Assembly: GCA_023515725.1 (NCBI GenBank)
Contig: JALDTO010000098.1
Span: 214,615-278,614 of the forward strand
Origin: Amoeboaphelidium protococcarum X5
Lineage: Eukaryota; Fungi; Aphelidiomycota
DNA length: 64,000 nt
Direction: 5' to 3'
Position numbers and translations under genes: made by a program. The first letter of the stretch is position 1, and the number at the start of each line of letters is the position of its first letter. Below the pieces are notes generated by a model. It ran no database searches and was not told the origin of the DNA. It worked only from the letters and a program-made list of their open reading frames with translations. Positions 6,734 to 64,000 of this stretch are shown here, one piece after another.

Positions 6734-6935
6734 TTTCTAATCAGTGTCGGCCATTTTCTATCTATCGATGTAAAAAAATGTTGAATATACCACAATTTGT
6801 AGTCAAAATGAATTGAAATGAGTGCCGACAGAAGAAGAAAAAGATTTGGAGAAAGTGAACAAATGAAACTCATCGCTTGGAGAACGATCGACATATCACT
6901 GAAAGTCTTTACCGAACAACTGCATCTTCACTAAC

Positions 6936-40216: not shown

Positions 40217-40330
40217 TGTTAAATGATTAACACATCAAAGTGAAAATAATGCTGGTGATGAACGAGGTCGGAACGATCTAAAAATTCGGTGTAATCAACA
40301 AAGACCACCAGTTTTATTGATCAAGTTAAC

Positions 40331-40850: not shown

Positions 40851-40858
40851 GCATAGTC

Positions 40859-41173: not shown

Positions 41174-41361
41174 ATATTAGTTACATTGTACAAACACGCT
41201 GGTGTTACGAATTTGATACGAAGGTGTTCCTCGACGCGACTTGCCGTCCTTTGATGATCTCAATCAAGAAGACTGGTTTCACTTCTACTATAAGCGATCT
41301 TTTCTTGATTATCTCACAGTGAGTCTTAACCAATACTTGTTTTGAGTTGTATCTGTAAATC

Positions 41362-41667
41362 ATGAATTAAAGTTACTATTGTAAATAATGTGCTATCCAA
41401 GTTGCTGATGCCGATGCGTGTCTATCAAAAGCGTTTCATGGACGGCACGGGAAGGCATTTCTGTTCAACAAGGTGTAGAATGTTTCATTCGGGAGTGATG
41501 ATGAACGCCTTCTGATCACAGGACTGCATGTGGTGAATGATATCCGCTGCTCGGTCTGTGAAAGTTTGCTTGGATGGAAGTATGTGAAAGCATTTGAAGA
41601 ATCTTAAAAGTACAAAGAGGGAAAGTGTATTATTGAATAGCAGAGAATTGTCAAAAGATTTTAATGA
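41362..41667 (+). CDS. Yippee/Moh1-family zinc-binding protein
   Basis: 101 aa, missed by the ORF track. YYCKQC, SKAFHGRHGKAFLF, LITGLHVV.DIRCSVC..LGWKY..AFEESQKYKEGK. Confidence 0.93.
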
Positions 41668-42003
41668 AGTTTGATTCGAGGAACCTTTTGATTAACATTT
41701 CTGATATTCTATCTGACAACATAGTAATAAATTGAATTTCAACTGTATAGATAACTTGGCGAATACTTTTAAGTTTAATTTTCAAATTCTGGAATATCTA
41801 TGGTATACAGTATGATCAGTTGCTCTCGATTGCGGCTTGTTTCACTTTGATTGATCAATTCAGTGTCTTTCGCTTGTGATCTTGTCCATAGGACTACTTC
41901 ACAATACTCTGGTTACAAAGGCTTCTAGAGTACTTATATATTAAGAAATAAAATGCACTAAATAAGCTTAAAATGGATTGATACAGCTTAAAATACATAA
42001 ATT

Positions 42004-42649
42004 TCAATAATCATCCTCGGAATCCTCACAATTATAACGCTCATCAGAGGTAGATTATCCCGAGTTGCTGCTGCCAATCTTAAATAAAACGCCTACAATT
42101 CACACGCGCGTTAAAAACGCAAAAATACACGTGAAACTTTGCAATGGAATACTTACCACTCTTTTATAATCGCTACTCTAATGCGGCAGTTGTAAAGTCG
42201 TCAGTGTTGCCAAGATCTTCGAATCCAATTAACTTGTCAAGAGACAGGCCATTTATAAACACAATGACACATGGCAATACTTAAATTCGCATCTTTTACA
42301 CCAGGAAGGGACACCTCTCAGCACAAACTTTCACAAATTTCACGTTAAAGTGTCTCTCAGCCAGTACTTACAAGTGGCGATCCATAATCTAGCACCTAGG
42401 GAAATCTTGATGGTAAAAGTGTACAATGCATCGCTTAGTCTGTGTGGTAATTTCAAAGACTTCCTTTTCTGATTACACTTCTAGGTACTTGCCATGTTCC
42501 CTTTAGGAGTACTCTTGCCTCAACGCCTATTCTCTCTTCAATTGCTCGAATCTGGCTTCCCTTATATTCGCGTCCAGTTCCTCATTCTCCAACTCTTCGA
42601 AAATCTAATCCAAATCAGATTCTTATTCCAACTACTCTGCCCAATTCAT
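42004..42649 (-). CDS. Phosducin-like thioredoxin-fold protein (TXNDC9/PLP1-like); intron 42093-42156
   Basis: HGKYLEV..EKEVFE, CIVHFYH..FPRCQIMDRHL, PFLVQKMRIQVLPC, IGFEDLGNTDDFTT. Missed by the ORF track. Confidence 0.9.
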
Positions 42650-42884
42650 AATATTAGTTAGAAATGTCTATAGAACACTTTTTAAGTTGATTCTAATTCT
42701 GAGCGAGAAAACTCAACTGCGATCAAGAAAGCCTTACGATTCTGCCAGGAGGAGTTTCTCCTTTTCCCCGACGGTAATGACTTGAAGCCATATAGATCAT
42801 CATTTATCAACAACACTGCGAATATTAACATCACTATAATTGGAAGAGATTTGTGAGGAACATATCAATCCTCCCCTAATAATA

Positions 42885-45632
42885 ATGACTGACGTTAGGA
42901 ATAGAAAGAAATCACCTGGTGTTATAGACGAGGATGTTGATGATCATATAAACACCCATTAAAATAGGGAAATGAAGGCTCTATTATCTGGCTCGGCCTT
43001 CAAATCTGCTGCATATTTGAATATATCATAGGAAGAGAGACCACTACCTATTGTGTTTGTGTATCTACTGTTATTTATTATAGCTTTGATGACTTCTGCT
43101 GTCAGAACTACTCTACCTGAGGCATTGATGTCCGTCTCTGATCAATTTGGTGCCTTGAATGCAATGCTTCATCTTCGCAATATCACAGAGTTTTAGCATC
43201 CATGGGGATCCAATGCTAATATCAAGGTGGGCCAGTATATCGTAGAGTAGTTGCATAACTTGAAGCAGTAGGCCAATGTTAATGGTTACAGTCTCCAGAT
43301 TGAAGTGGATGATGACCAAATGGATTATCAAGGATTGTACTTTGTGCCTAGTAGTTCAATCACTATTGAGATTCCGTATAAGAGAGCCTTTGTTCGTTCA
43401 CCTCAGAACTGGCTTGTTGAACCACGTAATATTTATGCACTATTGTCTGTAGGCAGTGGTGGATAGTAATCACCGTAGAATAACACTTTAAGAAAGTGTA
43501 TTCTCGTCACTGGTCATTTTGATTCTGCAGTATCCTCGTACGGAGCATATGACGATGGTATGTCCATGGCGTAGATGCTAGAGATCATTAGAGCTCTTAT
43601 TGATACTAATGCTTAGTCACTATCTTAGCCGTGGAAGTATGACATTTTATTCATGTTTGGCGATGGTGAGGAAGTTGGTCTCCTGGATGCATTTATGTTT
43701 ACATCAAGTAAATGGTACAATAGAACGGCAATGTTCATCAATATGGAGGCTGGTGGCAATGGGAGACGGCCAATGATGTTCAGGTACAACGATTTGAATT
43801 TGAAATTAAGAGCGGCCTCGGTACTTCCCTATCCGCATATGGATGTTATTGGATCTGAGGCTTTCAAACTGGGACTTGTACCATCTGATACTAACTACCG
43901 TGTATTTGTGGATAATGCCAAATTACCTGGTCTGGATTTTGCATTCTATGAGAATAGATACAAGTATCACACGCACATGGATGAGTTTTCCGATGTTAAT
44001 CCTAAAACTGTTCAGCTGTTTGGTGGTAATATCCTGGCTTTGATTAAGCATCTGCTGTATAGTGATTATACACCTCAGAAAAACTCAAAGGGGAAATACT
44101 ACGACTCTTTCTATGTCGTGTTTGATTTCATGGGAAAATCAGTGGTTTAAATTGGATTTGGAGGTTATGTAGCGTTAATTGTTATATTTGTGGCTACCGC
44201 TAGTGCTTATTTGTACTTTCTACGTGGTTATGGGGAAGGTACTACTGAGCAGAGTAGTAGCAATGGATAGTCATTAAAGTAATCATTCAAAAATGTTGGA
44301 TGGCTTTTTCTGCACTTCTTCTTGAGCTTAATTGGCACTCTAATTGTATTCTATGTCGTACAGTTCTTCAATCCAGCTTATATTGGCACGAAGTTCTTGA
44401 CATGCTTTGCCATGTTGCTAATAATGATGCACGCTATTCTGTTTGTAATGAAGGATCATATTGCGAAGGATTCCCTTGTGATTGATAATTCAGTTTTGTT
44501 GATCTATTACTCTATTTGGAGTGTATTTGCTCTTATATTGGCCTTATTTGGCAGTGGTGTTCTATACCTAATGGTGTTTTGGTTGATTTTTGTATGCTGT
44601 GAGGCTTATATAAGAAAGGTAGCTATTTACTATCTTGCTAAAAGTGATTAAAAGCAAGAGATTGGAGTGGCTGCGAACGTGTTTTTGATTCTAGTCAGAA
44701 TGACTATTCCTATTATGATGACGTGGGACGCATTCGAAGTCTTGTATGAAGGCCTGGCTCCTGTAGTACTGGATGGATCTACGCCGTTCATGTCCTTTGT
44801 GTTGGCCTTTCTGTTTTGCACCTTGTTCTTTGTGCCATTTACACCCGAGTTATTACAAGCGTATCAATTCTCAAAGTCTTGGAAGTATGCTAGTATTACT
44901 CTCACCGCGATTCTTCTTCTGGTGTGTACCGTCTAGTTTCCATATTCTGACTGGAGAGCAGTGCGTATGAGACCATGGCTTACCGAGCGTATGACTGAAG
45001 GTTAGAATCAGAGTAGTGGTGTCAATGTGACGATGTACGGCGGATATGATGTTCTGTATTCGTTGAAGAGAAGTCAATTCGCGTCCAAGTACCAGTTTAC
45101 CTGTGGCTACATTGATCTCCTGATGCAGTTTGATCCTGCCAAGGACTTGCACTTGGAATCGTGCTGGTTTATGATGTAAAATCGTTCATTGGTACCTAGT
45201 GTTGATAAAGAGGTACTTGGTGTCAGTGTCAGTTCTTTTAATGCAAGCCAAATAAGTGGCGTGTTCTCTGCACCAGCTGGTTCATACAGCTGCGAGATGG
45301 TGATGAGATTCGATAAAGGGAGCATTGTTACTGCCAAATTTGAGCCAATGGAGAAGAGTGTCGTGCAATTGCCAGGATTGAATATACTAACTCTAATGGC
45401 CCTACGCAAGAATGCATAACAAGACTGGCAGTTGCCGTTCACGGTGCAGATTAAATCTCAAGATTGGAATTAGATGAATTTCACAGCCACTTGTTACTAT
45501 GATGACCTCGTACACCAAGTCCCATTGGTTGATGAGGTTATGAAAGAGTTTCCAGACTGGGTCACTGAATTCACCTTGGGCGAGAGAACTGCTGCATTAA
45601 TGAAGAACAGCATTTTACAGCGTGAACCTTGA
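42885..45632 (+). CDS. M28-family membrane metalloprotease (ERMP1/Pff1-like)
   Basis: 915 aa. GHFDS..GAYDDG, GEEVGLL, FINMEAGG, PSDTNYRVF, YHTHMD, followed by a multi-TM region. Confidence 0.9.
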
Positions 45633-45716
45633 ATTTTGAAAAACGTAATAAAAAAATGATAATTTTATTTATATTTGTCACAAATTGATTATCAGGTAGG
45701 TTAAAAAGGGTAACGA

Positions 45717-47179
45717 TCATAAAAAGTCCATGCCAACTCCAATCTGCAATTTAGGACCTCTCTTCATCCACTTGAAGTATGAATAAGATTCCTTGTCCAG
45801 CTGAGATTTCATGAATGGAAATGCCAAGTTAACCTCCAGTCGACACATTGGTGCACGGAATAGTAATCCCCATCCAACACTGCCTGCAATCGGAGTCTCT
45901 CTGATGGTCTACACTGAATTCTACACAGTCATGTCCTGATACAGAGAACCGACATTGACAAATGTATGAGACTTCAAATTGTTCCACTCTTTCAAGTATG
46001 GCAGTGCACTATACATAGACAGTCCTGCAGCCCAATAACTATTACCACCAATAGAGTTATACTTTTACTAAAGCTAGTCTGAATTCTTGATACCAGTCTC
46101 TAAAGAGCCAGAGAGAGTATGAGCCTTACAGCCAATACCGCGCATAGAAAATCCCCTTATATCAGATGGACCACCCAAGACAAATCTGTCATATATGGGC
46201 AATTGAGAATTTGACATAGACCCACCAAATGGACTAATAAAGCCGCCAGATAATGAAGCATTAATAATCACATTCTCAGAAACCTATTTACAGTACTGAA
46301 ACAAAGCTGTGCTCTTCATAAATCCATCAGTTCCCTAAAGCAGAGACAATTCATTGACCACCTTTAATAACTTACCTTCAGACGGTATGAATAAATCATT
46401 TCTCTCATCACGTACAAATTCGAATTAAGCACTCAGTTTATTCGACAATTTAGCATTCTCCCTCACGTACATGGACGCATCCGCATGGATATTGGTCATC
46501 TCTCGAAAGTGATTGAACAGTGACGCTGTATGATATCCATACTTGGTCATGAAATTCCATTTACACCCAACAGCAGTGTCCACTTGATGAAATGCACTAG
46601 ACTGAGTGTAGTCATGAGATTTCTTGTACGCCACCACCTCCAGCGAAGATTCACGCAGACTATAGAGAGGTTTACGCGCTTGAAGTTCAAATGAGAAATT
46701 GGTCAAAGTACCGCGAGATGCAGACACAGACACAAACTCTCCTCCACCAAGAGCATTACGCAGCACACCCTGTATATTGACGTCAGCCTCATTGCGGTCG
46801 AATTCCGTGCCAGATTTGATGTGGATGCGCGGCCTCTCACGCAGAGTCAACTTTAACTCCATGGGAACTGAGTCTCTATCGCGATCACTCACATTCAAAT
46901 ACTTGTCATCTTCCGGGTAATTGAAGACGACATCCACAGACTGGAATATACCGAGCTTAGTTAACTTGTCCAATTACACGTGAGTTTACTTGAACACGTC
47001 TCGGAATGGCTGATTCTACATCTCCATTATGGGATCAAAGTACATCTAAAGCACAGACTTATTCGTATACTCAACTCCCTCAACATCAACTACATTCACA
47101 TAAATATATATTATTAAATTCTTAAAGTGATGAATATTAACTATTACTTACTCTTGTTTATAACCACTTTTCTATCCAT
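45717..47179 (-). CDS. SAM50: Mitochondrial outer-membrane beta-barrel Sam50; intron 47090-47151
   Basis: POTRA (LTKLGIFQSV), LRNALGGGE, DRFVLGGPSDIRGF, RLEVNL, C-terminal beta-signal QIGVGMDFL. Confidence 0.92.
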
Positions 47180-47305
47180 TTTAACTAGTATTGAGTAAGC
47201 CCTATAGATTACTGTTAGATTTACGCCGTATCGTCGCGCTTAATAGTCTTTAAGAGAATTACACTGCTTTCAATAACACGTAACTTTACGTGCATAAGTT
47301 GAAGT

Positions 47306-48923
47306 ATGAGTAACGACAATTAAATGCTTACTTCAAAATAGTAGCGATATGATAGACAATTGAGGTAGGCTTTAATACATTTAGATTATGCGAATTCAAT
47401 AAACATTATATTCATGTAGATTGTGGCATGAGCATGGATAGTAACGGTTGGATGAGAGTCACGTACTTTTAATTAATGCGGATGCTACTGGGAGTGAGGT
47501 GTTGAAGAATTTAGTTCTGCCAGGGATTGGATAGTTTACTGTGATGGATTAAGATTTGGTTACAGAGCTGGATTTGGCTAGCAATTTCTATGTCGATCAT
47601 GAATCTATTGGTTCTCCGCGTGCTGATACCGTTTGTAAACGGCTGATGGAGTTGAACGAAGCTGTCATTGGTCACCCTGTTATTCCCACTGATGGTTCTT
47701 ATAAGAAACTATTGGAAGATTCCGATTATTTGAAATAATTCACATTGGTTATTGCAAGTAATCTTCCACTTGACGTTCTTATTCCACTCTCAACGCGGTG
47801 TAATGCTAATAGATAGCCTCTAGTTGTCGTATATACTTGCGGATTTTATGGTTATGTCAGATTGCAACTTCCAGAGCATTGTGTGATTGAAGCTCATCCA
47901 GAGAATGTCATAGACTTGCGTATTGCTGATCCGTGGAGTGAATTACGTGAACTTGCCGCGGAAGTTGATCTATAAAACAAGGATTCCATGTACAAGTCTC
48001 ATATTCCATATTCTCTACTGCTTTTATCGTACTAACGCGTGTGGAATGAGCAGCACGATACTCAACTCTGTAGACGGGACTTGGAGGAATTTAAAAAGTT
48101 TATGCTCAGCGATGCTCCTCAGGATGACTCTGAAAACTATCATGAAGCTTGTCGCAACGCTTACAGATTGGTTTAGCAGTAATAGAAATTACCTTCAAAT
48201 TTGGAGCAATTGTTTGCTGTGAATACAAAGTTGACCTCTGATACTGAGGATTTCTGGTTCTTGGTTCAGGCATTAAAGGCATTTTACAAAAGTAGCAATG
48301 ACTAGTTGCCTCTAATAGGATCTCTACCTGACATGAAAGCTGATACTGAACAGTACATCTAGTTGCAACGTGTTTACAAAGCGAAAGCTACCGAAGATTG
48401 TTCGATAATGCAGTAAAATGTTGATTAACTTACGAAAGAGCATGGTAGACCATCTATCAGTGCTGATCTAGTTTAAAAATTCTGCAAGAATGCATAATTT
48501 ATTCGCGTCGATTAGTATTCTACAATCGCTGATGAGTTCAAGTCGCAGTAACTAAATAGTGAAAAACATTTAGAGGATGCAGATGCGATTTATATCTCTT
48601 TGCGTGCAGCACTAAAGTTTGCCTCAATAAATGGACGAATGCCCGGTTATGGAGTTGATGACAGTTGGGATTAGGATGTACAGTAGCTTCAATCAATCAC
48701 TCAGGAATTGTTGTAACAGCGCGTATTGACCAATTAATTGCTGAAAACACTTTATGAATTTGCTAGAGCTGGCAATGCCCAAGTGCATTCAACTTGCGCA
48801 TATATTGGTGGTCTGGCTAGTCAGGAGTGTTTGAAGATTATGACAAAGCAGTACATTCCAGTGAACAACACTATTATCTATGATGGTATGAATTCGCTTC
48901 CATCCATACGAAAATATGGGTGA
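47306..48923 (+). CDS. NAE1: NEDD8-activating enzyme E1 regulatory subunit (NAE1/APP-BP1/Ula1); intron 47365-47419
   Basis: YDRQLR|LWHEHGQ, GSEVLKNLVLPGIG, LPDMKADT, AYIGGLASQECLKIMTKQYIPVNNT. Confidence 0.92.
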
Positions 48924-49179
48924 TCATCTGTTAAATAGTTCTAGGTGCTTATTATAAATAAATCTTAAATTTTCCTGTAATGGAAGATGTGTAGTCGCAA
49001 AGTTCTAAAGTCCAAAATTTCCGCGACTAAGCTTGAAATTTGAGCGTTTATGAAGCAGTGTGCAGCACCACCTCGTACCTTAACGTGTATAAAAAGCTTA
49101 AGATGCAAAGACAGCATAGCAAAAATAATTAATTGGTCATATTCTCAAAATCAGAATATCAACGTAGCATTATGACACC

Positions 49180-49779
49180 TCATTGGCCGAACTATAATCG
49201 GACCATCATAAAATTGCCTTCAAACGGTACTTGACAAATTATTTAGGGCGACGGAATGTAGCTTGCCATTTTTCTTCTCATGTCCTAATGATTGCTGTAA
49301 TCTACTAGAACATCCTAAAAACGACCAGATTATGGGCACTTGGCAACTCGTTCAAGATAGCTTTATTATATTTCTCTCTGCTGGGCCTCGAGCAGTGCAA
49401 TTTTATTAATCAGGGGCTACTCGTGCTCCATACGATCTTCAATCATTAGCACCAATTCTGGCAGCTCAAAGAAATCAGCCTATCGGCGCAAAATGGATAG
49501 CGTGGCATAATCGATTCCTAGCTCCAGTTCATCATAACGCAAATAATTCAGAACCCATCTAAAGGCTGTGCCATCCTAATCCAGGAACATGGGATCAACA
49601 GTGCGGTGCCAGCGGTCCAACCAAACGCGAAAAAATGGCGATTTTTACAAGGTTTCTGCTGATGACGCGTAAAAACGACCGCCGACGTTAAGTGCCACCA
49701 GATTTGCTTAAATATGACCTGCGAAAAGTAGTAGGCAGATTGCCAGAGGTGCCAAAATACGGCGGATATAGGAATGCAT
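49180..49779 (-). CDS. Secreted BTB/POZ (KCTD/T1-type) domain protein, 199 aa
   Basis: Correct frame absent from the ORF track. MHSYIRRILAPLAICLLLFAGHIQA signal peptide, then LVALNVGGRFYASSAETL..SPFF..FLDQDGTAFRWVLNYLR..QADFFELPELV. Confidence 0.85.
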
Positions 49780-50421
49780 GCTGATCTTCTAAATCGTGAA
49801 GTGTCGAAGTTGACGCGGACTAAAGAGAGGAGTGATATTGAATGTAAAGGCATCAAGGGGCAGTTTAGAGATCTTAATTAAATTACAAAACATGTGCCTA
49901 TAAATGGCTTATTTACTGTACATCTATAAAATTGAACCAGATGGCTTACAATCATTCTAAAAATTTTAAAGTAATGACATTAAAATTTCACATCATGATG
50001 AATTTGGGCAGGGAGCAGATATAATGAAACAAGATCATCTCTTTTAGAATAAGTAATCATACACTTGAAACTAATTTCACATTACCGTATGTATATAGCG
50101 CGGAGAGTAAGTTTACAGAGGGAGCCGTCTACAACAGCAAGGACCGAATGTAACAGAGATAGCAACGATTCAAGAATATGCCTGGTGCATTAACAGCCAA
50201 TCATTTTGATCACACGGACAGTCGCAGCGTTGCGCCCGGAATTCGTCTTCTCACGCGGAATTTCCCTCAGCCTGATCACTCGCTCTCTTTCGTTTCTCCT
50301 TACATCAAGTCATTGGATTTGATTATAATTTGTCTCTCTCTCTCTCTTATCATTAAAATAATCAAGTTAAGTGACCTGAAATTATCGTAATCTAATACGG
50401 TAGTGTGAAAGTAACTAAAGG

Positions 50422-51636
50422 ATGACACAGAATATGAACGGTAGTAATTTCTAAAGTGGTAGATAGCAGAAAGCTTATACTAGCGCTCCATCCTCATCAA
50501 TTCCAATATCGCGCTAGTAGTAGTAATAGCATGGATTTCTGACATCTCATTAATCTACTTAGCTGTAGCGATAACAATAACAACTATTGTAATCGCGTCA
50601 GAATTAATTTAATCATCAATTTGGTGGTGTTGATGGTAACGGTAATGGGAATTCTGGATTGATGCTTGGTAATCAGTAGCAGTAATCGTAATTTCTCACC
50701 AGTCCTAATAATCTCATGATGCCGTAAAGTGCACCAGTCACTTTTGGTGGTGGAATGTCGAATTATGCAGCGATGCGGTAAAGTGCTGGTGGTAATTTCT
50801 CCTTTGGGTTCAATCAGTAGCAGCAGTAGCCATAATAGCAAATGTAGACGATCAATCCTCAAATGCTGCATGATGATCACCTATTGGATGAACTAACTGC
50901 TGACATGCTACTGAATGATGACATGTTCCCACTTAATTTGGATGGACATTAGTAAAGCTAGAATGATCTCTTATCTCCTAGTAATAATCCGAATGATCTT
51001 GGCGATGACATGGATGATGGTTGTTCTCCGTACTAATCCACATCTCCCATCATATTTGGCAGTAGTAGTTTTAATCCTAGTGCATTGTCTGCTGGTAGTT
51101 AGGGATTTTAGCGAAGTGCTAGAGGTAGTGGTAGTTCACTTTCAGGTGCTGTGAACAGTGCCGATACTAAGCCTCGCGCTATCATCAGAAAGGCGCGTGC
51201 CAGCTCTAATGCTCACTCTGTAAACACGAGTCAGGAGTTTGATGTTGATGTCAAACCTGGTGCTGGTAATAGCAGTAGTAATTCTCATATCATCAGTCAG
51301 TCATTTCCTGGTAGTACACTCTCTAATGATACAATCAATGAGGATGATAGCTAGTCTGGTAGTCTGCATAAGCACATCAGCGAGCTGGAGAAGCGTAGAA
51401 GGCGGCGAGAGTCACATAACGCGGTGGAGAGGCGACGAAGAGATAATATCAATGAGCGTATTTAAGAATTATCTACCATGGTTCCTCCTCTACCTGCGGG
51501 TGAAGATGATGGCAAGATGCATAAAGGGTCCATTCTGAAGCGATCTATTGACTACATTAGATATCTCTAACGCGAGAATGAACATCTCAGGCATAGACTC
51601 AAACGCTACGAATAGTCTTTTGGCGCCATTGAATGA
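50422..51636 (+). CDS. bHLH-Zip transcription factor (MiT/TFE-Rtg3-like)
   Basis: 404 aa. Q/N-rich N-terminus. KRRRRESHNAVERRRRDNINERIQEL..KGSILKRSIDYIRYLQ. Confidence 0.88.
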
Positions 51637-51870
51637 TAAGAATTGAATAAACTTTGAAGTCATTACTTTTTGATTCTATTTATTTTTCCTGTTTACTTCG
51701 ACGATATAAATTAAATCTTATAACCTTCTCGTTCAGTATGTCGTTTCACCCTTAGAATCTTTTAGCCGCAGTTCCGTAGCTTTGAAACGCGTCCACTTTT
51801 CCACTTGTCGCTTGAGGAAATATCCCGCTGAAATACTCTCTTGATAACACACACACACACCCTATTGAGA

Positions 51871-52587
51871 ATGAGTATAGTGGCAAAGCAAGTGACCACA
51901 TGTAGTAATTAGGTGGAAGCCATCTCGCGAAATATTTATAATGGCTATGCTGAAATATTGCAAGAATTCGCCGGTGAATTGGTTGAAGGTTAGTTGTAAG
52001 ATGGCTCTTTGGAGGAAGTCCGCGCTCTTGTGGATTAGCTGGTATAGGCGCATTAAGAAAATACAGCCTTGTAGCAGTCTCTTGGTTAGTTCAAGATGAG
52101 TGAATACGCTGAAATTGTGGAGTCGACTGATGGTAGTGTTTCCCAATATATTGAGACATTAAAGCGCATACAGCTCGAAGAACTGAAAGAGCGAGTCGCC
52201 CGTCATCCATTTCACGTTGGACTGGAGGCTGCTATCGAGGAGGCGCGTAAGAATCTTGTGGATTCTGATGACGAGATGGATGTAGAAGAAGATGCAGATG
52301 CTGATATGGTGGTGGCCAAGACTAAGCAAAGTACTATTTGCCCTATTTCGCAGACTACCCTTGTCAATCCACAGATGAGCACCAGGTGTGGACACACTTT
52401 CTCGCATGATGTTATTCATGCATGGCTTGGTCAGAATGCTGGTGGTTAGAAAGTATGCCCAGTTGCTGGATGTAATCAGATTATATCTGCAGCTACCTTA
52501 GTTCTGAACAAGAAGATGGTAAAGTAGTTGAAGAAGGAAGCCGCCAATGCCAAAGGTTAGGATGATGATGTGACTGTTTTACTGTGA
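51871..52587 (+). CDS. NSE2: SP-RING SUMO E3 ligase Nse2/Mms21
   Basis: 238 aa. DADMVV..STICPISQTTLVNP..CGHTFS..I..CPVAGC. Confidence 0.85.
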
Positions 52588-52698
52588 ATAATCTCCTCTA
52601 ATTAATGTATTTATGTTCTTTAATGAAATTAAAATCGTCAATATAAGACTACCTTGATTTAGTCATTGTATTAGTTCAATCGATTTCAATAATGATGA

Positions 52699-53151
52699 TC
52701 ATTCGTAGATCTGCTTGTCAACGGAGCGCTCGTAGGCCAATACTCCCTCCGAGAACCACAACTTAATCTCACGCTCGGCACTCTCCACAGAGTCAGAGCC
52801 ATGGACAATGTTACGGCCAACATCGATACAGAAGTCGCCTCTGATGGTACCTGGCTGGGAGTCAAGAGGGTTGGTAGCACCCAACATCATACGGCCAGTC
52901 TTGACAACACCCTTACCAGACCATACCATAGCTACAACAGGACCGCTGCTCATGTACTTGATCAGACCGGCAAAGAATCCCTTGCCCTTCAAATCCTTGT
53001 AGTGCTCCTCCAGCAAGTTGGCATTTGGGTGGGTCATCTTCATGGCCAGCAGTTGGAATCCACGGTTCTCGAATCTCTTGATGATCTCACCAACCAGTCC
53101 ACGCTGGACACCATCCGGCTTCACCATTATGTAAGTACGTTCTTGAGGCAT
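52699..53151 (-). CDS. NDK1: Nucleoside diphosphate kinase
   Basis: [37 protein letters not shown]. Confidence 0.97.
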
Positions 53152-53819
53152 TTTGTGATGTTTGTTTAGTACTTGTTAGTCCAAATCTACACAGTAATAA
53201 TCACTAAAATGTCAAATCAGAACGCGAATTATAATGATTAACTTACTAGGTTCAAGTTAAGTGCAATTGTGCAATAGCAGTAAATAGAGTAAAATGATGA
53301 AGAGAGACCTTAGAAAACGCGCTCGCATTTAACGCGACAACATTCGCCCGATCCACGACGAAGAAAAGTGAACAAGTATTATGCTGTTTATAAATGAATG
53401 CATGGCGTAAAGTAATAACGTCGGCTCGGATGGTCATTGAACGCGCGATTCAGCGATTGATGCACTCAATATGTAATTATTACTACAGCACTTGAAGACG
53501 TAGACGCTGAATACATATTAAGTTGCATGTGAAACCATCCTAATAGATATTTCATCATCGCTCATGTCTTTGTTGAACTGGCCATTATGCCACGCGTTCG
53601 GTTAAGGCTGATGATGGATTCAAGTTGAAACGATCGCTGTTTCCGTTCCTTCAAGATTCGTCGCGGCGCGCGTGGAATAGTACGACGTTGCTCTCACTAA
53701 CTTCCCTTAATAACACACGCAGACAATAGTAGAGCTCTGCCTATTCCACTTATATAGATACTCTATCCATAGTGCATACATTACTTCTGAAAATACTTTG
53801 AATTTTTATTATTAGAGAT

Positions 53820-53931
53820 ATGATGGCGATGAATAAAAAGCCTGGAAATGAGTTGCCATCTAAAGAAGCGGCATTGTTCAAGTAGATTCTGGTAAGACTT
53901 TAATACATATATGATCTCTTATATCGACTTC

Positions 53932-53983
<52 letters not shown>

Positions 53984-56098
53984 TTGTGTATTGTGTAGAA
54001 GCAGTATGAGCATAAATAATACAAGAAAGGTCTTAAGAATACTGATGCCATTCTGAAAAAGTTTCCAGAGAATGGAGAGACTTTGGCCATGCGTGGACTA
54101 TTCCTAAGTCATCTGGACAATAAGAAGGAAGCGTATGAGTGCGTGAAGAAGGGTCTCCGCTTCAATCTGACGTCGTCTATTTGTTGGCACGTGTATGGAC
54201 TGCTGTATAGAAGCGATAAGAATTATGAAGAGGCTGTGAAGTGTTACAAGAATTCACTCAAGTATGATAAAGAGAACATTCAAGTAATGCGAGACTTTGC
54301 CTTCCTCTAGGTGCAGATGCGCGACTTTGATGGACTGGCTGAGAGTATGCACACTCTGCTCACTTTAAAGTCTAATCAGAGAATGTATTGGATTGGGTTT
54401 GCTCTTGCCAATTATTTGAAAGGTAATCAGGAGGCAACTCGTCGCGTACTTGATGCTTATGAAGGAACTGTGACCGTTAATACTGACAAGCCTGATTATG
54501 AGCATTCTGAGTTTGTATTATGGAAGGCGCATATTCTCTCCTAGTATGAGGACTATCCTTCAGCTATAAAATATCTGTTGGATAATAAAAAGTTGGTTTT
54601 GGACACTATGAATTATAATAGAATTCTTGGAGATATTTATGTCAAGTCTGAGGAGTGGACAGAAGCAGAGAGGGTGTATTTACAGTTGGTTGATAGAAAT
54701 AGCGAAAGTCGAGTGTTTATAGAAGCTTTGGTGGATGTTAAGCGGAAGTTGAATCCAGAAGAAAGTGCATATCAGGTGCTGTGTGATCTTCAAGCCATCT
54801 ACTCTAGATCTAATATGATTGCCAGACTCAAGCTATTACTCAACGATTGTACTGATTAGGAGAATTTCAAGCAGGATTTACATAATTTCATTCTCAAGTA
54901 TTTGCGTAAAGGTGCACCATCTCTGTTTGTTCTCATCGCACCTCTTTATGAGTCTGGCAAGAAGGACGTTATTTTTATAATCGAATAGATCCTCTCCGAT
55001 TTGGGAGAGAATACAAGTAAAAATGAAAGCCCTACGTTTACTTTATGGCTTCAGTACCTGATGGCTCATCACCATTTGAAGATGAATTAGCCAGAGAAGG
55101 CGTTAGTCGATATAGATGCTGCTATTGAGCATACTCCAACTCAAGTTGAATGTTATATGCTAAAAGCTAGAGTCTTGAAGCATCTTAATAGATTAACTGA
55201 GGCTGCAGAATGTATGAATACTGCTCGAGTGATGGATTTGTAAGATAGATATCTGAATACTAAGGCTGTGAAATATTATCTTCGTGCAGACATGATTGAT
55301 GAAGCTGAGGACTGTATCAATTTGTTTACAAAGAATGGCAACTTTGAAGAGAAGGCTATGGATCTTGTGGAGATGTAGTGTCTATGGTATATTATAGAGC
55401 GTGCAAACTCTCATCTCAGGTTAAAGCAGTACGGTCTGGCGTTGAGATACTTTAACTATGTCTGCACCGTATTCGAGGAGATTTATGATGATCAATTTGA
55501 TTTCCACGCTTATTGTCTGCGTAAACTCACTCTGTGCTCATACTCACAGTTTCTAAAGTTTGTGGATGAGTTTTATGCTATTTAGAAGGCTTACATTCAG
55601 TGCGCTGTTGGCATATCTGAAATTATGTTGTTAAGATTAAAAGATTAAGCAGGCGTCGTGGATAAGTATCTTGCAGACGTACCCAGATTGGAGGAGAAGT
55701 ACAACTAAAGGCTTGAGGCATCTATTGAATTAGCCAAAGATGGCAAAAAGACGGATGTCAAATCTACTGGACCAAAGGCTGAAGATAAGTTTGGAGTGGA
55801 ATTGCTCACTTGTAAAGCACCTACTGAATTTGCTATTAAAGTTCTTTCACCTGCTCTTAAATCGGAATCAGATAGTTTCGCTCTTTACCGTGCCGCCACG
55901 CAAGTATTTATATAGGATGGAAAGTTGTTGCTGGCTGTAAAGTCTCTAAACAAGGCTACTTAGTTGGCCAAGTCGGACTCAGAGCAACGGATGGCTACTG
56001 ATCTCAAAGCTGAAGTCTAACGTTTGATAGAAGGATGGAAGGTGGAAGGCAAATTGTCCGCTTTAGCCTTGGATGTCTTGGAGAAGGTTAAAATTTGA
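53820..56098 (+). CDS. NAA15: NatA auxiliary subunit Naa15/Nat1; intron 53892-53998
   Basis: [13 protein letters not shown]|[60 protein letters not shown]. Confidence 0.94.
53935..53980. repeat. (AT)23 microsatellite inside the NAA15 intron
   Basis: Directly visible perfect dinucleotide run. Confidence 0.95.
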
Positions 56099-56158
56099 GC
56101 ACTTATCGTGTGCATAGATTGAATGAATATCATGCTATTAATCTAACATATACTGTAA

Positions 56159-56773
56159 TCACATATCAATTTCATCAAATTTTGTGCAGGCATTCACCAG
56201 ATGGATCGGAATATCTGTCAATTCATCCATTCTATAATCTTGATACAACTCTGCATTGCCTGTCAACTCGGTAGACGACGAACTATCTTCATTTCGCTTT
56301 ATAGACGCCATCCTGAGTTCATCATCTATATAACTAACATCATCGTCATTTGAGAGTCTGTTGGATGCAGAATATGATTACTACGAATTAGACCGTCGAG
56401 ACTTGGAACTTTTAGTAAATTACCCACTACTACTACTACTACTATCATACTGCCTGATTATGCTGTGACGATCGGTAAGAGTTTTGTAACTGTCCAGCGG
56501 CGGCGAAGTACTGACCATATAAGCCATGGCGACGGCGACCAGAGTAAGGAGCGACACTATAAAGAAGACGGGGATAGCAATGCCCCAGTACCTGGCGACA
56601 TAGTACGTGACACCATACGCATGCAGGGTGGCCTCAGGTAGGTACGCCCACGCAAGATAAACTCCGTACAATAAGAAACTAATCAAGTAAGTGCCAAATC
56701 CATAATACTCATAACTATTATCCTAATTATTATTCCCGCCCTCTTGTTCAACTTCTTTGGAATCGCCTTTCAT
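56159..56773 (-). CDS. GPI19: GPI-GlcNAc transferase subunit PIG-P/Gpi19
   Basis: 204 aa. EYYGFGTYL..YLAWAYLP..L..YGVTYY..RYWGIAIP, TSPPLDS..TLTD, DIPIHLVN. Confidence 0.88.
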
Positions 56774-56908
56774 ATCAAATTGTTTTTTAACGGATACAGT
56801 GAGGATATGATGGTGGTGGAAAATAGATTGAAACAATAAATTTATCGCAAAAGATCTCGGAGGAAGACAAAAACATAACATGGAGATAATAAAATAATAC
56901 TTCATACT

Positions 56909-58630
56909 TCACACAAACTTTTTGTTATATTCCAATTGCTTAATGATCTAGTCCAGCTCCTCTTTCAGATCAGACTCAAACTAATTCAACAGAGCAGGGG
57001 TATCATCCTACTCCTACTAAGAAAGCGGACTAGTACGCGTGATATCAATTAAAATGGGCATCAACTCGACAGTATTTAATTTGGCAGAGAATTTAGGCAA
57101 CAGAGCCACATGTGACCACTTGAGATCATCGTGCTTAACTTTGCATTTCAACATTGTACTCAGTGCCTCCTTTGCAACAATCATAGGGTCCTTCTAATCA
57201 GCATCGAATAACTCACGATTCAAATGAGGAAATTCAACCACTTCACGATCATCCAACGCTGCCGACATAGATGATGGACGCCGATTCCAACCGGATAGAC
57301 CGCAGAATGTAGGCTGTTGAGAAATGAATCGAATGTGAAAGCAGAACGGCATCAGTAGTGCATATTAACCGCTGAGTACTACGACACGACATTTAGTATC
57401 CCAAACACGATTCCACAAATCAGCTTCCTACTACAACTCCTGCAACTAATTTTCACGCTCAAAGGGGAACTTGACGACGCATAGATGGCCTCGACTTGTA
57501 CATCAGAGAGCTACCCTCCCATCACCACCGCGATGATAGTAATTCAGGATATAAAAGTTGTTATACTGGCAACTGGGGAACTTGTACGAGAATGAAGTTA
57601 ACGACTGAGGGAGTGACTCATAGGTAAAGCCATCCTTAGTCGCGAGGATATACTTTCTTTGAGGCTAAAGGAAACTTTAGAAAGGCGCTATAGGAGTCCT
57701 GCTTACTTTGTAAAGCAGAGACACTAACGCTTCTACCAGATCCACCTCAGAATGGTCATATACGCGTGAAGCATAAACAATAACTTTCCCAGAGCTGATT
57801 GAACAATCATTTGCCGTCATAATCGCAGAACTGCAAAGCTCATCATACTTCTATTAGTCAGTTTCCTACGCAGCTTCATTAGTATCTTCAAACCACAAAA
57901 TTCGCCACTTCTCATAGGTGGTCAAAACTCCAAAGACATACCTGACATTAAATGAGTTTCGTAAATCAACCATATAGTCCACAACTGAGAATAGCGAATC
58001 CATCGAGGACCCAGGAATCTTCACTTCACATACACTTGCGACTTGCTTGGTATCAGTAACTAAAGTAGTTACATCAACACGGTTTTGATGCTTCGACATA
58101 ATTCGAGAGATAGAAAACATAACCTCTTATTTGACCTCTAATTTCTTGAACAGGCCAGAAAGCTTCAAACAGTCAATGACAGTGGCTCTTACATAAGTCT
58201 AGATATCTATTTCTCTACTCCATGTGCCTAACGAACCAGATTCAGCTTCATTCCAGAGTCCTGAGAAAGCCCTTCGACTAAACTTATCACGCTTAAATTC
58301 GTCCAAAATTCCAAAAGAGCCGTCTAATTTAATTATTTTGAAATTGTATACAGACTGAGCTCTAGTTGTGCTTTTAGTAGAAGAGAATTCTCTATCTCCA
58401 AGAGGAGGTAGTGCATATACAGCAGGCGAACGATACTGACTCTGAAAAAAATTGTAAATGTCATCTCCATCATGAGGACGGAGTCTTAGCCAGTTATCCT
58501 CATTTCGCCTTCTCCATATTTCAATCGTAGCTTCAGCATCTTCATTAAGTTGGTCAATCAGATCTTGAGGAATAGGTTTCAATACATTTAACAGTTCAAG
58601 CAGATTACTTTGCATAGTTTCAGTCGACAT
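56909..58630 (-). pseudogene. Crinkler-like header + PD-(D/E)xK REase + kinase-like gene with one in-frame TGA (57503-57505)
   Basis: NRVD..VCEVK..FGVLTTYEKW REase-like segment, then GGDGRVAL*CTSRG..VVKF, QEADLW, HDDLKWSHV and LIDIT kinase-like motifs. The frame is otherwise open for 573 codons. Confidence 0.7.
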
Positions 58631-58807
58631 TTTAGTCCCCGTTTCTTTCTCAAAGTGCAGTGATTACTAGAGTATATGAAGAAAGAAAAGAGAGCGCATT
58701 TCTACCAGGAGACGCGTCTTCTCCTCGCCTTTTTGTTCTTTTGCTTGTAAATATTCTGAAACGGAAAATTATAGAAATTGAAGCAAGCTAATAGACAGCG
58801 AGACATT

Positions 58808-59599
58808 ATGCAGGGAATTATATTATCGGAAAAGTCTTCTTTGATTACCAAGGAGTAGGAGCTGGTGGAGGCCACTATAAAGGTGCTCAGGTAGCATTAT
58901 GAAAGATCAATTGAGGATTTGAAGCGATTGGAGTTGATGAAAAGGAGAGCCTTGGATGATCCTGAGGCGTACATTAACACTCATCTATTGAAGACGTTAC
59001 CTCTTGGGGATGGAGATGAAGACATTGCGGTAGAATGTAAACGGATTAAAGAGAGGCGCGATTTTGCTGTGCGCAATTATGGAATCCATGAGGTGAATTG
59101 GAAGGAGATTTATTGCCGCGGTGTCAGAATTCCAGAGGGTGTATACTCTAACAGCCATATAGATTCCGCATAGAATCATTCTATTGATCCTGTGCTGCGT
59201 CCACTTGGTGAGAAACGGCGCCCACTTAGTGAAAAGGTGTCTAATGCTCTGCGTAAATATGGAGGTGAATCCGCTAATGGGCAGCGAAATTCCAGTCTAA
59301 TACCCCTGTCCGCCAGCACTTCAATCGATAGCATCCCTGGTCTTGTTGACTCTAGGTACAACTCGCCGCGTATTCCAGAGCATGATGAAGATAATAGTTG
59401 CGGTAAAGATGGTCTTCATTCCGCCACTACTGCTCCACATGCAGCAGCGAAATCATCACAGTAAGCTGGTAAATTGCAGTAGAGTGCGCGTCGCCGATCG
59501 CGAGCGAATTTGGCGCGTCTCGCCAGTCGTTCTGACAATGACGATGATGACGATTAACAATAGGGCGATGAAGACTTTGAAATCAATGGCTAGAACTGA
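58808..59599 (+). CDS. Protein resembling the ZZZ3 coiled-coil region (no Myb/ZZ domain seen)
   Basis: 263 aa. ATIKVLRQHYERSIEDLKRLELMKRRALDDPEAYI resembles ZZZ3 TIAVLE.Q...DL..L.....AL..P..FV. Confidence 0.55.
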
Positions 59600-60728
59600 T
59601 GCAGCGTTGCGTCTGTCTTAATAATATCATAGTTTGAAATGTTTTAATAATAATTATCGTTGTGTATATCGACCAATTCTCTTTACATCTTCATAGAAGC
59701 GGCGCTTGCATAGTAACACCGGCCGTTAGTATAGTATTGGCGGAAGTCAAGTGCCGAAAGTATTTGATAGTGCACTGGTATAGCGGCATAAAATTATGGC
59801 TGCTACTACGCCCGGTCTAGTAGATAGAGCACGTAAGGCTGACAAGTATTTGAGACAAGAAGTATCGGAACGCTTGTTGGATAGATTATACGATTTCAAG
59901 GCTGATTATCGACAATTTACACGAGTACTAGATTTTGGCTCAGGATCTGGATTTTTAAAATCTCTTGTTGATTAGGAAGATATTTATCATGAAGATTTTG
60001 GAGTAAAAGAATTGGTTTAATACGATTTAGATGCTGCTATACTGGAACGCGATTCTGATATTTCGAGTGGGAATAAGTCCATTACCAATGTTATCGGCGA
60101 GATAGATGGTGTGCGCCTGCCGTTTAAGGATAATGAATTTAATCTTATCGTGAGTTCAATGTCAATGCACTGGATTAATGATATACCAGGAACTTTAAGT
60201 GAGTTGTACCGAGTTCTGAAGCCAAACTGTCCTCTGTTGATTGCAATGCCTGGAAATGACACGCTGTATGAGTTGCGATCGTCACTGATATTGGCCGAGC
60301 AGGAACGACATGGATTCATTGGCCCTTCGCGCATATCTCCGATGATGAAGAGTTCTGATTTGGCTGGTCTATTGGGCCATAGCGGCGCTAACTTTCAAGT
60401 TGTCACTGTGGATGTTGATGAGCTGACGATCTTGTACCCGGACGTGTTTGAGCTAATGCGCGATCTCCAAGCGATGGGTGAGAGTAATGCATCAATTCTC
60501 TCCGGTGGTCAGCCTTTGTCAAAGGATGTCTTACTGGCTCTTGATCCTGTATACAAGGCAATGTATGGAACACAGTTGGACGCGGATTAGAATGAAGGTG
60601 ATGCTAAGGGTGAAGACCTCATTCCGGCTACGTATTCTATAATTTATGCAATCGGTTGGAAAGACGGAGAAAATGTGCCAAAACCAGCTGAACGCGGCTC
60701 AGCGACAAAGTCACTAAAGGACATATGA
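59586..60728 (+). CDS. NDUFAF5: Mitochondrial complex I assembly factor NDUFAF5 (methyltransferase fold); start uncertain
   Basis: KVFD..YLRQEVSERLLDRL.D, LDFGSGSG, SSMSMHWINDIPG, DTLYELRSSL.LAEQER, DLQAMGESNA, ERGSATKSLKDI. Confidence 0.9.
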
Positions 60729-61509
60729 ACATTATATTGATAATGTGGTTAATTGTTACGCGTTTATTTAACTTTGTCTGATTTCTTGACACCTCATGCA
60801 CTATTATACGTAATGCATGGGCTCTAATATAATCAATTCATCTTGGTATGTGATAAAATCGCGTCAACTCAGCGAATGAACATAAAATCAAAAGCACCGA
60901 AAATATCGACAAAATACCTTGATGAAGAAAAGAGAAGTGTTCAAATCTTATCACTTTTTATTCGTATTGGTGAAAACTTTTTGAATATGTTTTGCAATAT
61001 TCCCGTGGCATTTCTCTATTGAAATGGCAACTTTACACAATGAGAGTATACAAGTGAAATATACTGTATATCAAAGGCGATATCAAAAAGCTCAACAAGC
61101 GAAAAGCATATAAATGTAGCATATGTGCAAGAATATTTATGTTAATCTTACTAATAAAAATAAATGTACGGATTTATCCACACAGCAATAAAACTGACAA
61201 TTTTATTGGAGCTCTATTGAATCCGGTCCATCTAAGAAGCATATGGAAATTAATGGCCACGGTGATATGCCACTATTTTCGAGAGCTTCTACTTTGCAAT
61301 TAAGGAGAAGAGAAGTGAGCTGATGAAGATTTCGCAGTTTCGGTTGATCGACGCGTCAATTTCAGTCTCTCTTATCACATTTATACGCGAAACCGTTGCA
61401 TATAACGGATTGACTATTCTCAAATACTCAACTCATCAAATATTGAAACGCGTGAAATAATATGACCTGCTTGATAAAGAAAAAGAAAAGAATATAAACT
61501 AGTGTGAAA

Positions 61510-63453
61510 TCAGCCAGTGTTATTGGAAGATACAGCCTCTTCACTCTTCTGACCGCTAATGGTTGCGACTTTGCCAGAAGGACCATCAGCAGAAGAAGAA
61601 GCACCATTGTCGCCCAGAGACTTGCCACTTGCATATTCACCTTCAGTCTTCTGATCCGATTCCGTCGATGGCTTGAAAGTTCTACGCTGAGACTTTGGAA
61701 GAACCCACATTTACCAATCTTCAACTCGTCTAACGCGTCCATCAACAACTTCGATCAACGAGCTTAGTTTAATAGTCTACACACATTATGTAGTATAATT
61801 ATGGTTAGTACTCTTTTCCAAAAATGGAGAGTGCAATGTCGTTGGCCAGGTAACTAGTTATTGAATATCCTGATATTCTCATTAAATCAGAATCATCACA
61901 TTGATTCAGAGAGATTCCCATCTGATACGATTAAAATCATTGAATATCAGGACCCGACAATTACTTACACCTGACCAAAGACGACATCAACACTATCCAC
62001 AACTAAAAAATCAAATTCTTACCTCAGTGATTAAAGCGACATCAGACGTGACATTCTTCATTCTAGGGAAGGAAGCAATGACATCAATAGACACAAAGCC
62101 TTCATCATCCATAAAGGATCTAAAGTACGTATCATGGATCAGATTCTCAATACTGAAATAGTACTCAACCTGACGAATGACAAAGTGTCTGATGGAGTCC
62201 ATCTCCATGGCAGATTGCACATAAGCATAATATGCCTGAGGATTACCATACTCATACGCATAATTAGCTCCATAAGGTCCTGGCATCATCGCCTGAGGAC
62301 CACCAGCACCAGGTTGACCTATAAATGGTTGCTGCTGTTAACCTTGTTGCATCATTTGTTGCTACTGAGCCACTGGAGGATATACACTGCCGTTGCTGTA
62401 ATATCTTGGCTGACCACTATTGTAGCCGCGGCCGCCACCTCTACCACGACCACCTCGTCCTCTGTAGTAACCACCAGTATTGCTGTTGTTATAATAGCCA
62501 CCAGAGGATTGACTATGAGTACTTCCACTCTAGTACCCATTACCGTGATAGCCAGCGTATCCAGAAGCTGAAGACACTGCGCGATCAGACTTTTGAGCAG
62601 GCGACACTCTGGCAGGCTGAGATGCTCTTTAATCAGGCGAAGAAGAAGGACTCAGCTACTACTAAGAGCGCCCAGATGACGCGTTTCCACTGCCATTGCC
62701 ATCTGCAGCAGAAGCTAAAGCTTTCTGACCATCATTGACTGCTACAGGGTCGGCCAATTGAATATCGCCCACTTTGGAGGCAATTTCATCACTCTTGTTC
62801 ATATCAACAGTAGATTAGTCGAGCTAAGACTATCCACTTTAATCTTTAGCCTCACTAGCAATACTCAGCTCAGATGAGGATGAAGAATTTTATTACTTTT
62901 CTGAAATTGACGCGCCAACTGATGTTTGCCCCTGTTACTACTACTACTACTATTACTATGATTACTACGGCGGCTATTGTGGAATCTTCAATTTTCTCTC
63001 TGCCCACACGTTGACAGCAGGAGTAACCGAAGGCGTCTATTGATTAGATGAGCTAGACTTTGGTGTAGTGTCTTTGACTAATTATTAAGAAGCAGAACCT
63101 TAATCTTCATCACCATCAGATTTTCGCGATTTCTAACTCTCAACGGGAGCGGATCTATGTGACTGAGATTTATTACTACTATTCGCATTTCTACCAGCTT
63201 ATTTAGAATTGGCATTCTACCCAGCACTTTACGACGTGTTCTTACTCTTAAGCAAATCTGCAAAACTCATCTTCTTCAATGGGGCGGCAGACGCCTCTTT
63301 CAATATCGTCGAACCAGTCTCATTAGTATTCTACTATGATGATTTACCAGCATTTGATGTCAAAGTATCCAATTCTTTTGAGGCCTTCTTTTTATCAGAA
63401 TGAACAATATTACTATCCATCTGCATAGGATCTCTAACTTCGTCAGTTGTCAT
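61510..63453 (-). CDS. La-related RNA-binding protein (LARP1/Sro9-like); intron 61777-62022
   Basis: PAVNVW motif, RGG-rich region, La motif IRQVEYYFSIENLIHDTYFRSFMDDEGFVSIDVIASFPRMKN, completed after the intron by LIEVVDGRVRR..DWQMWVLP. Confidence 0.9.
61827..61997 (-). other. Long intronic RNA stem-loop in the LARP intron
   Basis: Nested complementary arms: AUGUCG/CGACAU, UUGGUCAGGU/ACCUGGCCAA and a perfect 11-bp UCCUGAUAUUC/GAAUAUCAGGA, plus inner hairpins. Confidence 0.75.
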
Positions 63454-64000
63454 TTATAATGTTCGAGCGTGTTCAATAGAGATTCAAAATAGTAATGATA
63501 TAGCAATGTCTTCGAGAACAATCAAACCAGAGCTGTATGGTCAGTCAGTCAGTAGTAGCGATATTACGGGTATTCACAAAATGAAGGCTTTCAATAATAC
63601 TGCGGTAATATATTAAGCGCGTCTACACAGAAGGCAGGCAGTATACAGCGGGACTATATGAATGAAGCTAATATAAATTCACACACTAGAGTGATGACTG
63701 ATTGTCGCAAAGGAAGAATCAAGGCGGCCCAGCTGGCGAAGAAAATTCAATTTTCGGTTGGGTTCGAATCACTCGGCCGCGTACTCCGCTCAATTGCATG
63801 CATGCTTCCACATAACGATTGCGATTCGCGGGATGTAATTCAGATTAAATGGGACTCTGTTTTAAGATTATACAAGATTTTATTGATTAACTTTCAATAG
63901 TTGCTGCAACTAACTTTGTAGAATTATTTACCTTATTGAGTACGACTTTATCGCCATGATGGAAAGTCACTTTCGAATACGCGAAGACTTGTTTCGTTAC

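What the first reader, a model, noticed from the sequence alone, without database searches (positions are those of the whole stretch)
61777..62022. Oversized LARP intron folded into a ~170-nt stem-loop that contains an alternative 5' splice site
This 246-nt intron is far longer than the other introns here (48-107 nt) and interrupts the La motif. Its interior forms nested helices: GUGUUGAUGUCG/CGACAUUGCAC, UUGGUCAGGU/ACCUGGCCAA, AGUAAUUG/CAAUAACU, a perfect 11-bp helix, and two apical hairpins. The G-U wobbles work only on the transcribed strand, implying selection at the RNA level. Folding would cut the effective intron to ordinary size ahead of a perfect UACUAAC branch point (61804-61810). 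A consensus GUAAGU donor (61963-61968) lies in the 5' arm, and using it adds GTA AGA ATT TGA, a premature stop. Hypothesis: a structure-controlled splicing switch autoregulating an RNA-binding protein, or an intron-hosted ncRNA.
Basis: partly seen in the sequence, partly recalled or inferred. Interest (0 to 1): 0.75.

Follow-up and report, generated by a model that had tools for sequence, protein, structure and literature searches.

The report
U79-type snoRNA inside a LARP1 intron
The long intron of this LARP1-like gene carries a box C/D small nucleolar RNA with the U79 guide sequence, which likely directs a ribosomal RNA methylation, and the long stem predicted around it likely helps its processing rather than acting as a splicing switch; this is an ordinary arrangement in a new host.

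Summary
62022-61777 (minus strand) is a real 246-nt intron: one RNA contig and the annotated protein both skip it exactly. It splits the La motif of a LARP1-like gene of the aphelid Amoeboaphelidium protococcarum (TAA/TAG = Gln). It folds far better than chance (z -7.4; 0 of 1030 other tiles as stable for their GC).

Rfam SNORD79 matches over the whole model (E 7e-6; 46.6 bits against a cut-off of 47). Its 15-nt guide plus D' box is identical to Neurospora Nc CD14, the U79 orthologue for 26S Am2288. Boxes C and D are variant but complementary in kink-turn register. The 'perfect 11-bp helix' is the snoRNA terminal stem; the 'apical hairpins' are chance folds of the snoRNA body (z -0.5).

The outer stem is real (z -6.1) and most likely aids snoRNP assembly and shortens the intron. 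The internal GUAAGU donor exists but is predicted buried (13.8 against 3.4 kcal/mol to open), is unaffected by snoRNP-like opening, and was not seen used in thin RNA data. New member of a known kind; switch about 7%.

The parts
62023..63453 (-). Coding exon 1 of LARP1-like gene (477 codons, table 6; low-complexity and RGG region, then most of the La motif)
61510..61776 (-). Coding exon 2 (end of La motif, 88 codons, TGA stop)
61777..62022 (-). 246-nt phase-0 spliceosomal intron hosting the snoRNA
   Evidence: RNA contig junction; P0003 equals the two exons
62017..62022 (-). Used 5' splice site GTAAGA
61958..61988 (-). 5' arm of the external (outer) stem
   Evidence: arms duplex -44.4 kcal/mol, 0 of 2000 shuffles
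61963..61968 (-). Cryptic donor-like GTAAGT, predicted buried in the outer stem; use not observed
61942..61953 (-). 5' strand of snoRNA terminal stem (11 Watson-Crick pairs plus one G-U)
61868..61952 (-). Box C/D snoRNA, U79/SNORD79 type (Rfam match span; mature ends probably a few nt outside boxes C and D, inferred)
   Evidence: 46.6 bits, E 7e-6, model 1-83 of 83
61934..61940 (-). Box C, variant AUGAUUU
   Evidence: kink-turn register
61906..61920 (-). Antisense guide plus box D' (CUGA at 61909-61906); identical to the 15-mer of Neurospora Nc CD14
61893..61898 (-). Box C' UGAUGA
61879..61882 (-). Box D, variant AUGA, complementary to the variant box C
61867..61878 (-). 3' strand of snoRNA terminal stem
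61835..61863 (-). 3' arm of the external stem
61804..61810 (-). Branch point TACTAAC (predicted branch A at 61805, 74 nt after box D)

Best explanation
The spliced intron of a LARP1-like gene carries a U79-type box C/D snoRNA that is likely released from the excised intron and likely guides 2'-O-methylation of the large-subunit rRNA adenosine equivalent to human A3809, while the predicted long stem around it likely serves its processing. Shown: splicing at 62022/61777, the guide, the boxes and the complementarity of the arms. Inferred: after splicing and debranching, exonucleases trim to the protein-bound C/D kink-turn. The 12-bp terminal stem and about 25 bp of outer stem hold the non-consensus boxes C and D together for Snu13/Nop58 loading, and bring the 5' splice site closer to the branch point (83-92 nt effective). 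The internal GUAAGU is most likely an incidental site that the stem keeps silent.
For: Full-length Rfam SNORD79 match, the only hit at E<=1 in all 64 kb. Guide plus D' identical to N. crassa Nc CD14, which pairs 10/10 with 26S rRNA at Am2288 and is listed as the U79 homologue and as intronic (PMC2780460, passages and supplement 4). The same element lies in a SNORD79-like hit in an intron of L002. The fifth base before D' is U, so the target is A. Standard kink-turn register: C-G closing pair, 3-nt bulge, G.A, A.G, U.U, then U-A where the Rfam consensus has G-C. Outer arms z -6.1. PMC10557570 (passage) states that stems in flanking intron sequence aid snoRNP assembly. Normal junction seen in RNA.
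Against: Rfam score is 0.4 bit under the gathering cut-off. Boxes C and D deviate from consensus. No small-RNA data and no aphelid rRNA sequence were available, so expression and the methylation are not shown. No orthologous intron could be fetched, so conservation and covariation of the outer stem are untested. A 12-bp terminal stem is already ample, so the role of the extra outer stem is an inference.
Confidence: 0.85

Rival explanations
1. The snoRNA is also, or mainly, released without splicing: the outer stem is an RNase III-type substrate whose cleavage frees the snoRNA and destroys the LARP pre-mRNA, as for yeast U18 and snR38. Compatible with the best explanation as an added route.
For: About 37 bp of interrupted duplex closed by a C/D motif. 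PMC3867540 (passage): Rnt1p excises U18 and snR38 from host introns whose structures lack the canonical tetraloop, with Nop1p's help.
Against: None of the 4 predicted hairpin loops is an AGNN tetraloop; no genome was held to check for an RNase III gene; no cleavage data.
Confidence: 0.2
2. A cis-acting switch like NOP56/SNORD86: conditions shift splicing from 62022 to 61968, adding 54 nt with a stop at codon 481 and truncating the La motif.
For: Exact GUAAGU (4% of 20000 shuffles); in-frame stop; U1 pairing only modestly weaker, -8.0 against -9.6 kcal/mol; both donors are about equally open until about intron nt 170 is transcribed. Precedents: SNORD86 and SNORD2 (PMC11028025, PMC10324135, passages).
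Against: Opening cost 13.8 against 3.4 kcal/mol once nt 180 is made, before the branch point at nt 213, and identical when the snoRNA body is forced open, so snoRNP assembly is not predicted to flip it. Donor-like hexamers occur in 24% of shuffles. The one junction seen is the normal one and no contig enters the intron. The stop lies 42 nt before the alternative junction, under the recalled 50-55 nt rule for junction-dependent decay.
Confidence: 0.07
3. The outer stem is a decayed MITE or chance palindrome into which the snoRNA falls, with no RNA-level role.
For: The opposite strand also folds well (z -4.8); G-U against A-C bias is only 5 to 2.
Against: No second copy in the 64-kb window; no target-site duplication at the 3 stem boundaries inspected; the arms are coaxial with the snoRNA terminal stem and centred on the C/D motif. 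Genome-wide copy number could not be tested.
Confidence: 0.05

Closest known systems
SNORD79/U79 (Rfam RF00152, clan CL00069); N. crassa Nc CD14; plant snoR44
   Same: Same D'-linked guide (15-mer identical to Nc CD14), same box order, intronic location, predicted target LSU Am2288 (Neurospora) / Am3809 (human) / Am2316 (Arabidopsis).
   Different: Host is a LARP1-like gene (L002's copy is in an Hsp70-like gene, by my reading; human U79 in GAS5 is recalled); boxes C and D are the variant pair AUGAUUU/AUGA; terminal stem 12 bp and continued by a long outer stem.
Yeast intronic U18 and snR38 with external intronic stems
   Same: C/D snoRNA enclosed by paired flanking intron sequence without a canonical Rnt1 tetraloop (passage; stem details recalled from Villa 2000 and Giorgi 2001, seen only as reference titles).
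   Different: Here the snoRNA also has a strong terminal stem; RNase III involvement is untested.
NOP56/SNORD86 and EIF4A2/SNORD2 cis-regulatory snoRNAs
   Same: Intronic C/D snoRNA next to a potential alternative splice site that would give a premature stop.
   Different: Those rest on two competing folds involving the snoRNA body, and SNORD86 is an orphan in a core snoRNP protein gene. Here one fold dominates, the snoRNA has a conserved rRNA guide and the host is not a snoRNP protein.
LARP1 family (human LARP1 La motif; S. pombe C1527.03; yeast Sro9/Slf1 recalled)
   Same: Best PDB matches are human LARP1 (E 6e-19) and S. pombe C1527.03 (E 1.5e-17), ahead of La, LARP4, LARP6 and LARP7.
   Different: Only the La domain is found by Pfam; no DM15 or RRM.

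Membership tests
Box C/D snoRNA | Boxes C and D able to form a kink-turn, closed by a terminal stem | tested here: met
   Variant AUGAUUU/AUGA in standard register with compensatory U-A pair and 12-bp stem
Box C/D snoRNA | Internal D' and C' boxes | tested here: met
   CUGA 61909-61906 and UGAUGA 61898-61893
Box C/D snoRNA | Accumulates as a discrete RNA bound by Snu13, Nop56, Nop58 and fibrillarin | not testable with these tools
   Only contigs of one RNA run, none covering the intron
U79 orthologues (guide for LSU Am3809/Am2288) | Antisense element of 10 nt or more before D', fifth base opposite the target A | tested here: met
   Identical to the Nc CD14 guide, which pairs 10/10 with Neurospora 26S
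U79 orthologues (guide for LSU Am3809/Am2288) | Target sequence present and methylated in this organism's LSU rRNA | not testable with these tools
   No rRNA in the window and no genome held
Rfam RF00152 in the strict curated sense | Score at or above the gathering cut-off of 47 bits | tested here: not met
   46.6 bits, E 7e-6; strict Rfam membership is therefore not claimed, orthology rests on the guide
SNORD86-type cis splicing switch | Alternative fold, changed by snoRNP assembly, that alters donor access | tested here: not met
   In silico only: opening cost of both donors unchanged when the snoRNA body is forced open
SNORD86-type cis splicing switch | Alternative donor used in vivo | tested here: inconclusive
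   1 of 1 junction contigs uses the normal donor, depth 6.5, related strain
MITE | Multiple copies in the genome | tested here: inconclusive
   Single copy in 64 kb; genome not held
MITE | Target-site duplication flanking terminal inverted repeats | tested here: not met
   None by eye at 3 candidate boundaries
Canonical Rnt1 substrate | AGNN tetraloop capping the stem | tested here: not met
   0 of 4 hairpin loops; U18-type substrates lack it too
LARP1 family | LARP1-type La motif | tested here: met
LARP1 family | DM15 domain (absent from some fungal members, recalled) | tested here: not met
   No Pfam hit other than La at E<=1; hence 'LARP1-like'

The most novel reading that the evidence does not exclude
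The stem is a kinetic switch: while the 3' arm is still untranscribed both donors are open, and slow elongation, or binding by the LARP or snoRNP proteins, commits U1 to 61968. That would give a truncated LARP mRNA and still release U79, uncoupling snoRNA output from a translation regulator, a NOP56/SNORD86-like circuit at the base of the fungal lineage.
Probability: 0.07. Interest if true: 0.6.

Novelty: new member of a known kind. Interest (0 to 1): 0.22.

Why it matters
It explains the odd intron without a new mechanism and adds an aphelid U79 that Rfam's default cut-off misses by 0.4 bit. Two details have minor specialist value: a compensated non-consensus C/D pair, and an unusually long enclosing stem that could be checked in other aphelid snoRNA introns. 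Two literature searches (listings only) and one search showed no aphelid snoRNA study and no U79-in-LARP1 report in this library; subscription papers on the aphelid genome were not searchable. If the internal donor proved regulated, it would link rRNA modification capacity to a LARP1-type translation regulator.

Tried and rejected
No whole genome held: no genome-wide copy count, no homeologous intron, no rRNA target, no RNase III search. Scan of metagenome contigs with the 19-nt guide gave 2 loci: L002, a U79-like snoRNA in an intron of a gene whose other introns hold three U14 copies, and L001 with no snoRNA hit; no aphelid orthologue. Box-plus-guide patterns in prokaryote genomes (7 loci) and viral contigs (2 loci): 0 of 9 had a snoRNA hit, treated as chance. 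Two sequences are too few for covariation, so no model was built. Only one RNA run held the stretch (0.11 of words); its lack of cover over the intron is not evidence against retention or snoRNA expression. A second lay over 39500-59000 gave 2 joints, neither GT-AG. A codon-score intron finder returned 2 candidates and picked a wrong acceptor for the NatA intron; not used. CUGA at 61890-61887 considered as box D and rejected, because AUGA 61882-61879 abuts the terminal stem in kink-turn register. The apical hairpins rejected as functional structure. A possible 51-nt intron at 63347-63297 rejected (contig and P0003 run through it). Three look-ups of earlier findings returned nothing. PMC2817437 and PMC3542256 (passages) added nothing.

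Full report
Host gene and organism. The minus strand at 63453-61510 reads as a two-exon gene under NCBI table 6 (34 TAA/TAG codons read as Gln in exon 1). A protein search with the La region returned 2 hits among 7 candidates, both labelled Amoeboaphelidium protococcarum: P0003 (100% identical, 565 aa) and P0004 (562 aa). P0003 equals exon 1 plus exon 2 letter for letter. PMC5304391 (passage) reports UAR = Gln in this species. Pfam finds only La (425-480); the best solved relatives are human LARP1 and S. pombe C1527.03. The gene is LARP1-like, without DM15 or RRM.

The intron is real. Of 14 records of RNA run X1 laid on 59000-64000, one contig (depth 6.5, 13 other letters in 290) joins 62023 to 61776, skipping 246 nt with GT-AG ends. 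It was the only joint there. The run is a related strain at low depth, held as contigs, so it shows presence and not absence. The branch point TACTAAC is at 61810-61804.

The structure is more than chance. The transcribed strand folds at -79.9 kcal/mol (z -7.4, 0 of 200 shuffles), the other strand at -57.8 (z -4.8). Against 1030 other 246-nt tiles of the window, none has as low a GC-corrected energy and 6 have as low a raw energy. The stacked helices span 61988-61942 and 61878-61835 with mean pair probabilities 0.93-0.99. The outer arms alone pair at -44.4 kcal/mol (z -6.1, 0 of 2000 shuffles), whereas the apical 63 nt fold no better than shuffles (z -0.49, 140 of 500). The wobble argument is weak: 5 G-U against 2 A-C positions in an arm-to-arm alignment.

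What sits at the apex. Rfam gives SNORD79 (RF00152) at 61952-61868, all 83 model positions, 46.6 bits, E 7e-6, cut-off 47; it is the only hit at E<=1 in the whole window. The guide plus D' box, UGGGAAUCUCUCUGA at 61920-61906, is identical to that of Neurospora Nc CD14, drawn paired 10/10 with 26S rRNA at Am2288 (PMC2780460 supplement 4) and tabulated as intronic and homologous to U79. PMC3511168 (passage) lists U79 at human Am3809 and plant snoR44 at Am2316. The fifth base before D' is U, so the target is A. Locus L002 holds the same element in an intron (SNORD79, 39.2 bits), sharing a run of 22 identical bases. C' (UGAUGA) follows D' by 7 nt. Box D ends 74 nt before the branch A and 102 nt before the 3' splice site; box C starts 82 nt after the donor, further than the 41-60 nt usual in Neurospora.

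How it likely works. Shown: splicing, guide, boxes, arm complementarity. Inferred from known intronic C/D snoRNA biogenesis (PMC10557570, passages): lariat release, debranching, trimming to the protein-bound core, then guide-directed methylation. That review states that stems in flanking intron sequence aid snoRNP assembly, citing Villa 2000 and Darzacq and Kiss 2000 (titles only). The outer stem fits that role, plausibly more so with non-consensus boxes, and it cuts the effective intron to 83-92 nt. An added RNase III-type release, as for yeast U18 and snR38 (PMC3867540, passage), is possible but untested; no AGNN loop is present.

The internal donor. GTAAGT at 61968 would add 54 nt and a stop at codon 481. 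The exact hexamer appears in 4% of 20000 shuffles of the intron core, a GURAGU or GUAUGU in 24%, and GTAAGT occurs 34 times in the window's two strands. Predicted U1 pairing is -8.0 against -9.6 kcal/mol for the used donor, with a U1 motif recalled from memory. Opening it costs 13.8 against 3.4 kcal/mol. The two donors are about equally open until intron nt 170, and the internal one is shut from nt 180, before the branch point at nt 213 exists. Forcing the snoRNA body single-stranded leaves both costs unchanged. This differs from SNORD86 and SNORD2, where competing folds of the snoRNA control splicing (PMC11028025, PMC10324135; passages). The stop would lie 42 nt before the new junction, below the recalled 50-55 nt rule, though other decay routes could apply. 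For the switch: the transient window of equal access and the near-equal U1 pairing. It is not excluded; I put it at about 7%.

MITE. No second copy in 64 kb and no target-site duplication at 3 boundaries inspected; genome-wide copy number could not be tested.

Novelty. Intronic C/D snoRNAs in translation-related genes with enclosing stems are established. Searches for aphelid plus snoRNA (2 papers, listing only, neither on the subject), for U79 with LARP1 or host gene (12 of 224 listed) and for LARP with snoRNA host (15 of 259 listed) showed no report of this locus or pairing; subscription papers and bioRxiv supplements were not available. Verdict: new member of a known kind, interest 0.22.

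Noticed in passing
window 61934-61940 and 61879-61882 (-): Boxes C and D both deviate from consensus at the same kink-turn pair (U-A instead of G-C), with further pairing possible beyond it; probably part of why the Rfam score falls just under the cut-off.
   Followed up: partly
window 61777-61832 (-): Two small predicted hairpins flank the branch point: one just before it, and a 7-bp one (mean probability 0.87) that includes the 3' AG; could shorten the 28-nt branch-to-acceptor distance. Not tested against chance.
   Followed up: no
window 63297-63347 (-): An intron-like 51-nt in-frame stretch (GTAAAT, TACTAAT, AG) in LARP exon 1 is unspliced in an RNA contig and in P0003.
   Followed up: yes
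window 53892-53998 (+): 107-nt intron in the NatA auxiliary subunit gene holding a long TA repeat; source of the next most stable tiles in the folding background.
   Followed up: partly
window 3677-6802, 18750-23024, 42786-45629: Long uninterrupted ORFs under table 6 (Spt5; SH3-PH-ArfGAP-ankyrin-RhoGAP protein; M28 peptidase) suggest an intron-poor region, in which the snoRNA may be why this intron is kept.
   Followed up: no
window 57506-58906 (-) and 37862-40234 (-): ORFs of 467 and 791 aa with no Pfam hit at E<=0.01.
   Followed up: no
window 52854-53107: One X1 contig skips 252 nt with non-canonical ends and a 21-nt side in a gene that reads like nucleoside diphosphate kinase (recalled motif); likely another organism or misalignment.
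   Followed up: no
L002 806-2724 (+): Hsp70-like gene (by my reading) with three U14 snoRNA copies and one U79-like snoRNA in its introns, showing a different host for U79.
   Followed up: partly
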